NCBI RefSeq assembly: GCF_000026545.1
Contig: NC_011601.1
From: Escherichia coli O127:H6 str. E2348/69
GTDB lineage: Bacteria > Pseudomonadota > Gammaproteobacteria > Enterobacterales > Enterobacteriaceae
Length of the DNA stretch: 64,000 nt
Strand: one strand, 5' to 3'
Made by a program: the position numbers and the translations under genes. The notes under the pieces were generated by a model. That model searched no databases. It was not told where the DNA came from and saw only the letters and a list, made by a program, of their open reading frames with translations. Position 1 is the stretch's first letter; the number at the start of each line of letters is the position of its first letter. This document shows, piece by piece, positions 47,554 to 47,880 of the stretch.

Positions 47554-47880
47554 ATGAAAAGAAATCTTCCGTTAATTATTTTGTTGTCTTCTTTGGTTAT
47601 GGGCTGTACGCAACATAAAACAGATATGCCTCGACAGTTGGTTAAGGCATTACCACAATATCCGGCCTATGCCGCGGCAAATTATATAAAGGGACGGGTT
47701 GATGTGAAGTTTGATATTGGTGCTGATGGTACTGTCACCCGAATTGAGTTTATCCGTTCAGAGCCGCACCATCTGTTTGATGAGCAGGTTGTAAAGGCGA
47801 TGGCAAAATGGCGATTTGAGAAGGACAAGCCGCGTAAAGGCGTGAAGAAAACATTTATCTTTAGTCCTTCAGCACCCTGA
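47554..47880 (+). CDS. Lipoprotein with TonB C-terminal-like domain
   Basis: Signal peptide with lipobox LVMGC; C-terminal region (...YPAYAAANYIKGRVDVKFDIGADGTVTRIEFIRSEP...AKWRF) resembles TonB C-terminal fold. Confidence 0.6.
   Translation: MKRNLPLIILLSSLVMGCTQHKTDMPRQLVKALPQYPAYAAANYIKGRVDVKFDIGADGTVTRIEFIRSEPHHLFDEQVVKAMAKWRFEKDKPRKGVKKTFIFSPSAP

What the first reader, a model, noticed from the sequence alone, without database searches (positions are those of the whole stretch)
47554..47880. Lipoprotein with TonB-C-terminal-like domain encoded between the lysis genes and cos
At the position where lambda carries bor (a serum-resistance lipoprotein), this prophage encodes a 108-aa lipoprotein (lipobox LVMGC) whose mature part resembles the TonB C-terminal domain. 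Together with lom downstream of J it represents surface-exposed moron cargo that could affect host envelope properties or phage superinfection.
Basis: partly seen in the sequence, partly recalled or inferred. Interest (0 to 1): 0.35.

Follow-up and report, generated by a model that had tools for sequence, protein, structure and literature searches.

The report
Prophage lipoprotein carrying TonB's receptor-binding domain
A defective prophage of E. coli E2348/69 encodes a small outer-membrane lipoprotein that is essentially the receptor-binding end of the host protein TonB without its motor; it probably acts as a decoy that blocks TonB-dependent entry of phages and colicins, but this has never been tested.

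Summary
Window 47554-47880 (+) is an intact 108-aa gene. It is 100% identical to E. coli E2348/69, where RefSeq calls it 'TonB family protein'.

- **Architecture:** a canonical lipoprotein signal peptide (LVMG|C18, Thr at +2, so outer-membrane sorting), an ~8-residue tether, then a complete TonB C-terminal domain. Pfam E = 2e-15. It is 40% identical, without gaps, to E. coli TonB 153-231. The AlphaFold model lies 1.0-1.2 Å from TonB bound to BtuB or FhuA.
- **What is missing:** TonB's membrane anchor and proline-rich spacer. It could bind transporters but not energise them.
- **Selection and spread:** dN/dS is 0.13 between the two E. coli alleles. The gene is intact in 80/80 viral contigs. The alleles occur in 7.7% and 22.6% of complete E. 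coli genomes.
- **Family:** ~110-aa TonB_C lipoproteins in Enterobacterales. They occupy the same slot (after the lysis genes, before terminase) in unrelated Salmonella, Klebsiella and Rahnella prophages.
- **Expression:** the phage-21-type allele is transcribed in LF82 lysogens. Several relatives have a near-perfect Fur box ~30 nt upstream.

Best explanation, inferred and not shown: an outer-membrane-tethered TonB decoy that blocks TonB-dependent entry of phages and colicins. It is neither a Bor homologue nor a spanin.

The parts
47554..47880 (+). CDS, 108 aa plus stop: outer-membrane lipoprotein with a TonB C-terminal domain (RefSeq WP_000828067.1, 'TonB family protein')
   Evidence: ORF and annotation; domain; dN/dS 0.13 against the phage 21 allele; intact in 80/80 IMG/VR loci
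47554..47607 (+). Lipoprotein signal peptide, aa 1-18 (MKRNLPLIILLSSLVMG|C). Cys18 would be the lipidated first residue of the mature protein. Thr19 at +2 is not Asp, so Lol sorting to the outer membrane is expected.
   Evidence: pattern match, conserved in the family; the +2 rule is established knowledge for E. coli
47608..47628 (+). Short tether (aa 19-25, TQHKTDM) between the lipid anchor and the folded domain
   Evidence: low pLDDT up to about aa 25; the first strand is at aa 28-30; the TonB alignment starts at aa 24-26
47653..47856 (+). Pfam TonB_C match (aa 34-101). The folded domain spans about aa 26-104 (47629-47865) and is equivalent to E. coli TonB 153-231.
47833..47862 (+). Predicted strand beta3 (aa 94-103, ..GVKKTFIF). 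It is equivalent to the TonB strand that pairs with the Ton box of transporters. The protein ends 5 residues later.
   Evidence: DSSP E94-103; superposition on 2GSK_B and 2GRX_C; F230 equivalent = F103
47494..47521 (+). Promoter-like site: ATGACC, 16 nt, TAGAAT, with an extended -10 TG (TGtTAGAAT, 47513-47521)
   Evidence: scan; the number of such sites in the region is not above chance. TGTTAGAAT is invariant in 80/80 related loci and kept as TGTCAGAAT in phage 21 and Perceval, while the flanks vary. Function is inferred.
47517..47533 (+). Perfect 8-1-8 inverted repeat AGAATAAGaCTTATTCT overlapping the -10. It sits where relatives have Fur boxes, but matches the Fur consensus at only 13/19.
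   Evidence: The right half varies in some loci and is absent in phage 21.
47544..47548 (+). Weak Shine-Dalgarno sequence (GGGAA), 5 nt before the ATG. The equivalent AGGA is annotated as the RBS in phage 21.
47226..47415 (+). Context: a ~190-bp block just upstream, conserved in 398 phage records, most of which lack this gene. It marks the left border of the cassette.
48392..48403 (+). Context: lambda-type cohesive-end sequence (cosN core), 512 bp downstream of the stop codon

Best explanation
The gene encodes a TonB decoy. After export, lipidation at Cys18 and Lol sorting, the protein would sit on the periplasmic face of the outer membrane on an ~8-residue tether, right beside the periplasmic openings of TonB-dependent transporters (FhuA, FepA, Cir, BtuB and others). 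Its only folded part is the TonB module that captures the transporters' Ton box by adding a beta strand to their sheet. It has no inner-membrane anchor, no ExbB/ExbD coupling and no proline-rich spacer, so it could occupy Ton boxes (of transporters, and of incoming colicins) but could not pull.

The expected result is competitive inhibition of TonB-dependent uptake. The lysogen would gain broad, receptor-independent protection against TonB-dependent phages (T1 and phi80 type), group B colicins and siderophore-microcins, at some cost in iron uptake.

It is expressed from its own promoter in the lysogen. It also lies in the path of late transcription. In several relatives it is under Fur control, so it would be switched on when the transporters are derepressed.

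Shown here: architecture, fold, purifying selection, distribution, conserved genomic slot, transcription of a homologue in lysogens, and Fur boxes in relatives. Inferred: outer-membrane location, Ton-box binding, inhibition, and the phenotypes.
For: 1. The domain is TonB's transporter-binding module.
- Pfam and TIGRFAM matches above threshold.
- Gapless 40% identity to E. coli TonB 153-231.
- The AF2 model superimposes on TonB in the BtuB complex (2GSK_B, rmsd 1.0 Å, TMt 0.92) and in the FhuA complex (2GRX_C, 1.2 Å, 0.92).
- The YP motif and all five aromatic positions F180/F202/W213/Y215/F230 are kept, with Y215 changed to F.

2. Everything needed for energy transduction is absent. The protein scores 74 bits against TonB equivalog models whose cut-offs are 265-448 bits, and only over their last ~85 positions.

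3. The lipobox is conserved with a non-Asp +2 residue across the family.

4. Precedent for inhibition. [quoted passage not shown] A Ton-box pentapeptide reduces TonB-dependent colicin killing and phi80 infection (PMC9841981, citing Howard 2001 and Tuckman 1992).

5. Precedent for the strategy. T5 Llp is a phage lipoprotein of the inner leaflet of the outer membrane. It binds FhuA and excludes superinfecting phage from the periplasmic side, and the prophage Cor proteins are structurally similar to it (bioRxiv 10.64898/2026.03.26.714494).

6. Mobile-element cargo under selection.
- dN/dS 0.13.
- 80/80 intact copies.
- Present in 416 and 1225 of 5426 complete E. coli genomes.
- Same slot in Salmonella, Klebsiella and Rahnella prophages that have different lysis and terminase modules.
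- One homologue sits on a plasmid-like contig next to QatABCD-type genes.
- In Klebsiella it sits next to an Acb2/Tad1-like gene.

7. The homologue is transcribed 8-fold above prophage background in LF82 lysogens.

8. Fur boxes lie ~30 nt upstream of the start codon in the Salmonella prophage homologue (15/15 of the 7-1-7 motif), Erwinia (14/15), a metagenomic homologue (14/15) and Gibbsiella (15/19). The chance of a >=15/19 match in 200 bp is 0.00045.

9. In a fusion model the FhuA Ton box DTITVT is predicted as a beta strand (pLDDT 62-74) while the linker is disordered.
Against: - No binding or phenotype data exist for any family member. None was found in 10 literature searches.
- TonB residues implicated genetically in Ton-box recognition are not kept: R158 is K, Q160 is L, R166 is Y, and these positions vary within the family.
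- Strand beta3 begins with charged residues (KK, KR or RK) where TonB has VV.
- Inhibiting iron uptake under iron starvation looks costly. Chromosomal, non-phage homologues with Fur boxes in Gibbsiella and Erwinia suggest a housekeeping role in iron physiology rather than pure defence.
- The E. coli alleles lack a convincing Fur box.
- No PADLOC model matches.
- The fusion model is weak evidence.
- No linkage to a particular J receptor-binding type was seen.
Confidence: 0.45

Rival explanations
1. An iron-regulon accessory that modulates, rather than blocks, TonB-dependent transport. For example, a Fur-controlled outer-membrane factor could hold or hand over exposed Ton boxes, tune transporter signalling, or limit over-import. 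Prophages would then carry it as a fitness factor for iron-limited hosts.
For: Fur boxes sit at a fixed distance upstream in four lineages, including two chromosomal, non-phage homologues. Perceval carries the gene together with the sitABCD iron/manganese uptake operon. tonB itself is Fur-regulated (established knowledge).
Against: No mechanism is known by which an un-energised TonB domain could promote transport. The engineered periplasmic TonB domain inhibits it. The two E. coli alleles lack a clear Fur box. The family is mostly on mobile elements.
Confidence: 0.2
2. A different envelope function that uses the TonB fold for another ligand, such as peptidoglycan binding or envelope stabilisation, or a virulence or serum-resistance role like Bor at the same genomic position.
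For: It is an outer-membrane lipoprotein moron next to, or in place of, bor. The recognition residues R158, Q160 and R166 have diverged from TonB. The family has its own motifs, such as SEPxHLFD and KWRFE.
Against: There is no similarity to Bor; the only Pfam matches are TonB_C, above threshold, and TonB_2, below its cut-off. The core, the aromatic positions and the beta3 edge of the Ton-box-binding fold are conserved under strong purifying selection. Fur boxes point to iron and TonB biology.
Confidence: 0.15
3. A lysis accessory or spanin-like protein expressed late, as the PHROG label 'Rz-like spanin' and the constant position right after the lysis cassette might suggest.
For: The best PHROG hit is phrog_1267, labelled 'Rz-like spanin', E = 3e-42. 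The gene is co-oriented with the late operon and directly follows the lysis genes in four phage groups.
Against: The cassette already has a complete two-component spanin, Rz plus embedded Rz1. The protein has no C-terminal membrane segment and no spanin-like sequence. The homologue is transcribed in lysogens. Homologues exist on a plasmid and on chromosomes without any lysis genes. The slot is a known moron site, as bor shows. The PHROG name is most likely annotation by position.
Confidence: 0.05
4. A non-functional remnant of a captured tonB gene, as database names such as 'TonB fragment' and 'partial tonB-like' imply.
For: It covers only the last third of TonB. This particular prophage is defective: it has IS insertions and a head-tail deletion.
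Against: dN/dS is 0.13 at saturated dS. It has a purpose-built lipoprotein signal peptide that is conserved family-wide. All 80 of 80 copies are intact. It is transcribed in lysogens. It is only 40% identical to host TonB and has lower G+C, so it is not a recent fragment.
Confidence: 0.03

Closest known systems
TonB C-terminal domain (E. coli TonB residues ~153-233; PDB 1U07, 2GSK chain B, 2GRX chain C)
   Same: Same Pfam and TIGRFAM family. It aligns without gaps at 40% identity and has the same predicted secondary-structure order: a short strand, helix, two strands, helix, then beta3. The predicted structure lies 1.0-1.4 Å from solved structures, including the transporter-bound state. The YP motif and five aromatic positions are conserved.
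   Different: It has no N-terminal transmembrane anchor and no Pro-rich spacer. A lipoprotein signal peptide replaces them, so the domain would hang from the outer membrane, not the inner one. It ends 5 residues after beta3. R158, Q160 and R166 are not conserved. It scores far below the TonB equivalog cut-offs.
Engineered periplasmic TonB C-terminal fragments (Howard, Herrmann, Stratilo and Braun 2001, J Bacteriol 183:5885)
   Same: An isolated TonB C-terminal domain delivered to the periplasm without energy coupling. It is reported to inhibit iron import through E. coli TonB-dependent transporters (as cited in PMC9841981). This is the functional model proposed here.
   Different: Those fragments were soluble, artificial and over-expressed. 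This is a natural, lipid-anchored, diverged version carried by prophages. I could not read the original paper.
T5 Llp and lambdoid Cor superinfection-exclusion lipoproteins
   Same: Llp is a small phage-encoded lipoprotein of the inner leaflet of the outer membrane. It acts on a TonB-dependent transporter (FhuA) from the periplasmic side to block phage entry, and the prophage Cor proteins are structurally similar to it.
   Different: The fold is unrelated: no BFVD match at E<=0.001, although the Llp fold is said to be common there. Llp is FhuA-specific and works allosterically. A TonB-domain decoy would act on the shared Ton box of all such transporters.
Lambda Bor (serum-resistance lipoprotein)
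   Same: A lipoprotein moron located between Rz and cos in lambdoid phages.
   Different: No sequence similarity. bor is on the opposite strand, and it coexists with this gene in phage 21 and Perceval, so the two are neighbours, not alternatives.

Membership tests
TonB_C domain family (Pfam PF03544 / TIGR01352) | Profile match above the curated threshold | tested here: met
   PF03544: 57.2 bits against 24.6. TIGR01352: 57.1 bits against 27.1.
TonB_C domain family (Pfam PF03544 / TIGR01352) | TonB C-terminal fold (three-stranded sheet packed against two helices) | tested here: met
   AF2 pLDDT 95-99 over the domain. Foldseek top 11 hits at E<=1e-5 are TonB or FusB C-terminal domains, with TMt up to 0.92.
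TonB energy transducer (NCBIfam equivalogs NF008080-NF008084) | Full-length score above the equivalog cut-off | tested here: not met
   50-74 bits against cut-offs of 265-448. Only profile positions ~152-240 are matched.
TonB energy transducer (NCBIfam equivalogs NF008080-NF008084) | Uncleaved N-terminal membrane anchor that couples to ExbB/ExbD, plus a proline-rich spacer | tested here: not met
   The 108-aa sequence has only a cleavable lipoprotein signal peptide and a 7-residue tether before the domain.
Bacterial lipoproteins (Lgt/LspA substrates) | Lipobox at the end of a signal peptide: positive n-region, hydrophobic h-region, [LVI][ASTVI..][GAS]C | tested here: met
   IILLSSLVMGC matches the PROSITE-type pattern with Cys at position 18. 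The pattern is conserved in 15 of 18 short relatives; a 16th has a visible LSAC lipobox.
Bacterial lipoproteins (Lgt/LspA substrates) | Actual lipidation and outer-membrane localisation | not testable with these tools
   This needs globomycin sensitivity, palmitate labelling and membrane fractionation. A non-Asp +2 residue predicts outer-membrane sorting.
Spanins (Rz/Rz1 or unimolecular) | An o-spanin paired with or embedded in an i-spanin gene, or a lipoprotein with a C-terminal membrane segment | tested here: not met
   A separate Rz (PF03245) and embedded Rz1 (PF06085) are present. This protein has no C-terminal hydrophobic segment. Only the PHROG label suggests a spanin.
Bor/Iss lipoproteins | Sequence homology to lambda Bor | tested here: not met
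   No Bor family hit in Pfam, NCBIfam or PHROGs. tblastn with phage 21 Bor finds nothing in 61 related loci.
Llp/Cor superinfection-exclusion lipoproteins | Llp/Cor fold or sequence family | tested here: not met
   No viral structure match at E<=0.001. No family hit other than TonB_C.
Llp/Cor superinfection-exclusion lipoproteins | Blocks phage infection through a TonB-dependent transporter | not testable with these tools
   This needs plating assays.
Moron (autonomous prophage accessory gene) | Transcribed in the lysogen independently of the late operon | tested here: inconclusive
   For the 70% homologue in Perceval, published RNA-seq shows 8-fold above background. For this allele there is only a conserved extended -10 and low G+C. 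No terminator was found downstream.
Fur regulon | Fur box overlapping the promoter | tested here: inconclusive
   The window allele scores 13/19, although it has a perfect palindrome at the homologous position. The Salmonella homologue scores 15/15 of the 7-1-7 motif, Erwinia and a metagenomic homologue score 14/15, and phage 21 has none.

The most novel reading that the evidence does not exclude
A widespread Enterobacterales family of outer-membrane-tethered TonB decoys, carried mainly by prophages and in several lineages wired to Fur. It would constitute a new, receptor-independent class of exclusion system. By occupying the shared Ton box it would close all TonB-dependent gates at once to phages, group B colicins and siderophore-microcins, exactly when iron starvation derepresses those receptors.
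Probability: 0.35. Interest if true: 0.7.

Novelty: new variant of a known kind. Interest (0 to 1): 0.5.

Why it matters
Together the two alleles are found in up to about 30% of complete E. coli genomes (7.7% plus 22.6%; overlap not determined), including EPEC, STEC, AIEC and the species type strain. Related genes sit in Salmonella, Klebsiella and Rahnella prophages. Yet the gene is annotated only as 'TonB family protein' or 'TonB fragment', and in PHROGs as a spanin.

If it is a decoy, lysogens would differ from non-lysogens in three ways: sensitivity to T1-like phages, colicins and microcins; uptake of siderophore-antibiotic conjugates such as cefiderocol-type drugs; and iron acquisition. 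That bears on phage therapy, on competition in the inflamed gut, and on TonB as a drug target.

It would also show that phages can disarm a host energy-transduction system by copying only its coupling domain. The hypothesis can be tested with a single plasmid and standard plating and transport assays.

Tried and rejected
- **Literature.** Ten full-text searches found no functional study. The only relevant data are the LF82 transcriptome table. The Howard 2001 paper is not held, so it is cited second-hand.
- **Rfam** scan of 46400-48700: no match.
- **PADLOC:** no match for this protein or for its two small neighbours.
- **BFVD** viral structure library: nothing at E<=0.001. The AFDB library was unavailable.
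- **Does the gene block the phage's own receptor?** The J C-terminus of this prophage is of the ev207/Evi type. Other carriers of the gene (ev017, Stx1a_PV02105) have J tips only ~54% identical, so there is no linkage. Idea dropped.
- **Small ORF upstream**, annotated in phage 21 (CPT_21_72). In the window it is cut to 21-31 codons and poorly conserved, so it is probably not a gene.
- **Upstream 190-bp block as part of the cassette.** Rejected, because it occurs in 398 phage records, most of which lack the gene.
- **IMG/VR scan with a family alignment.** It returned only near-identical E. coli alleles. That was useful for checking intactness and promoter conservation, but not for diversity.
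- **Fur box in the E. coli alleles.** Not convincing.
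Full report
**Where the window comes from.** The last 44,283 bases of the window are 100% identical to E. coli E2348/69 chromosome NZ_CP059840.2. The finding lies in a lambdoid prophage inserted between potB and potC. The prophage cannot make particles. ISEc13 and IS200C sit between the nanS-p-like esterase and the holin. A deletion fuses a fragment of the head protease gene to a fragment of tail gene K, removing the capsid and tail-tube genes.

Gene order around the finding is as follows.

| Feature | Window coordinates | Source |
|---|---|---|
| Class II holin | 45394-45600 | |
| SAR-type lysozyme | 45600-46097 | |
| Rz (PF03245) | 46082-46531 | |
| Rz1 (PF06085), embedded in Rz | 46263-46478 | |
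| Unrelated 76-aa ORF, minus strand | 46648-46878 | |
| The finding | 47554-47880 | |
| DUF3950 gene, minus strand | 48013-48153 | |
| Lambda-type cohesive-end sequence GGGCGGCGACCT | 48392-48403 | |
| Nu1 | starts at 48572 | |

Further downstream, lom (PF06316, E = 5e-121) follows J.

**Checking the observation.** The ORF is as described.
- The ATG at 47554 gives 108 aa and is the start used by RefSeq. It is also the start conserved in phage 21.
- The in-frame ATG at 47539 is GTG in most related loci.
- The N-terminus MKRNLPLIILLSSLVMGC fits the standard lipobox rule, with Cys at position 18 and Thr at +2.
- The rest is a TonB C-terminal domain:
  - Pfam PF03544: 57 bits against a cut-off of 24.6.
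  - TIGR01352: E = 1.7e-15.
  - phmmer against PDB TonB chains: E ~1e-16, with a gapless alignment.
  - 32/79 identities with E. coli TonB 153-231 (the residue numbering rests on my recollection of P02929, which matches the PDB alignment).
- An AlphaFold2 model built on 23 sequences has pLDDT 95-99 over residues 30-105. Its elements, in order, are a short strand, a helix, two strands, a helix and strand beta3.
- Foldseek against the PDB returns TonB and FusB C-terminal domains at every E<=1e-5 hit. These include TonB in complex with BtuB (2GSK_B, rmsd 1.0 Å) and with FhuA (2GRX_C, 1.2 Å).

**It is a real gene under selection, not a fragment.** E. coli carries two alleles.
- The window type occurs in 416 of 5426 complete genomes.
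- A 70%-identical type, found in phage 21, Perceval and ev017, occurs in 1225 of 5426.
- Between the two alleles dN/dS is 0.13, with dS ~1.5.
- All 80 IMG/VR loci carrying the window-type allele have an intact 108-codon ORF.
- G+C is ~42%, against ~50% for the lysis and terminase genes. Identity to host TonB is only 40%. It is therefore an old, foreign cassette and not a recent piece of E. coli tonB.

**A family with a constant address.** An exhaustive HMMER search found short (~107-133 aa) relatives at 34-51% identity whose alignment includes the N-terminus. Nearly all have a lipobox and a non-Asp +2 residue. Their sources, as named by the databases, are Salmonella, Klebsiella, Gibbsiella, Rahnella, Erwinia and Pantoea.

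| Homologue | Context |
|---|---|
| Salmonella | Prophage: holin, GH19 endolysin, DUF2514 spanin, **gene**, HNH, HK97-type terminase |
| Klebsiella | Prophage: two holins, GH19 endolysin, Acb2/Tad1-like gene, **gene**, Terminase_2/6 |
| Rahnella | Prophage: two holins, GH19, Rz, **gene**, lambda-type terminase |
| Uncultured (contig L020) | Plasmid-like contig: ParM/StbB, **gene**, KAP NTPase, QatB, TatD |
| Gibbsiella, Erwinia | Ordinary chromosomal neighbourhoods |

The constant position after the lysis cassette probably explains the PHROG label 'Rz-like spanin' for phrog_1267. I regard that label as a mis-annotation. This cassette has its own Rz and Rz1. The protein has no C-terminal membrane segment. 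Homologues exist where there are no lysis genes at all.

**Relation to bor.** Phage 21 and Perceval have bor (minus strand) and then this gene (plus strand), side by side. None of 61 window-type loci with enough upstream sequence has bor. The gene lies in the same accessory region as bor but is not its counterpart.

**Expression.**
- A promoter-like site has an extended -10 (TGtTAGAAT, 47513-47521) 33 nt upstream of the start. That nonamer is invariant in all 80 related loci and is kept as TGTCAGAAT in phage 21 and Perceval, while neighbouring bases vary.
- No intrinsic terminator follows the gene.
- In LF82, the Perceval homologue ('TonB fragment', LF82_160) is one of seven Perceval genes transcribed at least 5-fold (here 8-fold) above prophage background in overnight LB cultures (PMC9928086).
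- Because the gene is co-oriented with the late operon and lies between Rz and Nu1, it should also be transcribed late after induction (inference).

**An unexpected regulatory signal in relatives.** A Fur-box palindrome lies 29-31 nt upstream of the start codon in several homologues.

| Homologue | Sequence | Match to Fur motif |
|---|---|---|
| Salmonella prophage | TGATAATTATTATCA | 15/15 of the 7-1-7 motif |
| Erwinia chromosome | TGAGAATGATTATCA | 14/15 |
| Metagenomic P0036 | TGAGAATTATTATCA | 14/15 |
| Gibbsiella chromosome | (19-mer) | 15/19 |

In random sequence of this composition, a >=15/19 match occurs in 0.045% of 200-bp stretches. At the homologous place the window allele has a perfect 8-1-8 palindrome (AGAATAAGaCTTATTCT, 47517-47533) overlapping the -10. 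It matches the Fur consensus at only 13/19. Phage 21 has nothing there. The family therefore appears to be ancestrally iron-regulated, and the E. coli prophage alleles may have lost or changed that control.

**Mechanism.** What the sequence shows:
- TonB's transporter-binding module is present, with the YP motif, the five functionally important aromatic positions and the beta3 edge strand.
- The membrane anchor, the ExbB/ExbD coupling region and the Pro-rich spacer are absent.
- The domain is attached by a ~7-residue tether to a lipid anchor predicted to sit in the outer membrane.

What is known from the literature:
- TonB C-terminal fragments bind transporters (2GSK and 2GRX; PMC11658791).
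- Over-expressing the periplasmic domain inhibits iron import. A Ton-box peptide reduces TonB-dependent colicin killing and phi80 infection (PMC9841981).
- T5 Llp, a phage lipoprotein of the inner leaflet of the outer membrane, binds FhuA from the periplasmic side and blocks phage entry; the prophage Cor proteins are structurally similar to it.

The most economical inference is a natural, lipid-anchored, dominant-negative TonB. It would be a decoy that occupies Ton boxes and lowers all TonB-dependent import. The lysogen would be protected from TonB-dependent phages, group B colicins and siderophore-microcins. Fur control in relatives would switch it on when the receptors are derepressed.

A fusion model of the mature protein with the FhuA N-terminus predicts the Ton box DTITVT as a strand (pLDDT 62-74) while the linker is disordered. 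This is consistent with the inference but weak. I put this explanation at about 0.45.

**Against it.**
- R158, Q160 and R166 of TonB are not conserved, and beta3 starts with charged residues. Specificity may therefore have shifted.
- Chromosomal, Fur-regulated homologues argue for a physiological role in iron homeostasis.
- Blocking iron uptake during starvation is costly.
- There is no experimental phenotype.

The rivals, with my confidence in each, are a modulatory iron-regulon role (0.2), another envelope or virulence function (0.15), a lysis accessory (0.05) and a dead fragment (0.03).

**Comparison with known systems.** By sequence and fold the protein is a member of the TonB_C domain family. 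It is not a TonB energy transducer, a Bor protein, a spanin or an Llp/Cor protein: for each of these a defining feature was tested and not met (see the membership table). Under the proposed mechanism it would work like the engineered periplasmic TonB fragments, and ecologically like Llp and Cor. I found no paper that proposes or tests this (10 searches). I therefore rate it a new variant of a known kind, of moderate interest: common, uncharacterised, currently mislabelled and easy to test.

Noticed in passing
L005/L006 6972-6986; L018 ~5970; L004 ~289; L011 ~6965 (upstream of homologues); window 47517-47533: Fur-box palindromes sit at a fixed ~30 nt upstream of the start codon of TonB_C-lipoprotein homologues. 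The Salmonella prophage copy is a perfect 7-1-7 motif (TGATAATTATTATCA). Erwinia and a metagenomic homologue score 14/15, and Gibbsiella scores 15/19. The window allele has a perfect but non-Fur-like 8-1-8 palindrome at the same position.
   Followed up: partly
window 47226-47415: A ~190-bp, ~51% G+C block immediately upstream of the cassette is conserved (75-95%) in 398 phage records, including 933W-type Stx2 phages that lack the TonB-like gene. It always lies between the bor slot and terminase or cos. Indels of 1 nt and 17 nt break every reading frame between phages, so it is probably non-coding. Some records annotate ORFs over it as 'hypothetical' or 'Rz-like spanin'. Its function is unknown. 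Rfam finds nothing.
   Followed up: partly
window 46648-46878 (-), hairpin 46604-46630: A 76-aa minus-strand ORF with two hydrophobic segments occupies the place where phage 21 and lambda have bor. It is followed by a 12-bp-stem terminator on its own strand. G+C is ~38%. It has no Pfam or PADLOC hit, and it is present in only 9 of 61 related loci. It is a second, uncharacterised moron candidate.
   Followed up: partly
window 43265-45234 and 52789-53237: The prophage is defective. ISEc13 and IS200C are inserted between the nanS-p-like esterase and the holin, which separates the lysis and late genes from the Q/pR' region. A deletion joins a fragment of the S49 head protease gene to a fragment of the NlpC/P60 tail gene K, removing the capsid and tail-shaft genes. 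The TonB-like gene, lom and the lysis genes remain intact.
   Followed up: no
phrog_1267; L014 2488-2733: The PHROG family that this protein matches end to end (E = 3e-42) is labelled 'Rz-like spanin'. RefSeq phage records also carry 'Rz-like spanin' on an unrelated 81-aa ORF over the conserved block. These look like labels assigned by position that propagate through phage annotation pipelines.
   Followed up: partly
L008 6379-6663; L020 7213-11737: In Klebsiella prophages the gene sits next to an Acb2/Tad1-hairpin-like (anti-CBASS/anti-Thoeris sponge-like) gene. On a plasmid-like contig the homologue P0065 sits directly upstream of KAP-NTPase, QatB and TatD genes (a Qat-type defence system). 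The neighbourhood is enriched in phage-host conflict genes.
   Followed up: no
phage Perceval (OV696612.1), LF82: Perceval carries the TonB-like gene together with the sitABCD iron/manganese uptake operon and an NmpC porin. All are listed among the genes transcribed in the lysogen. A TonB-independent metal uptake system could offset a TonB block. This is anecdotal.
   Followed up: no
window 48013-48153 (-): A 46-aa DUF3950 gene (PF13132, E = 1e-17) lies convergent with the TonB-like gene, between it and cos. Its function is unknown.
   Followed up: no
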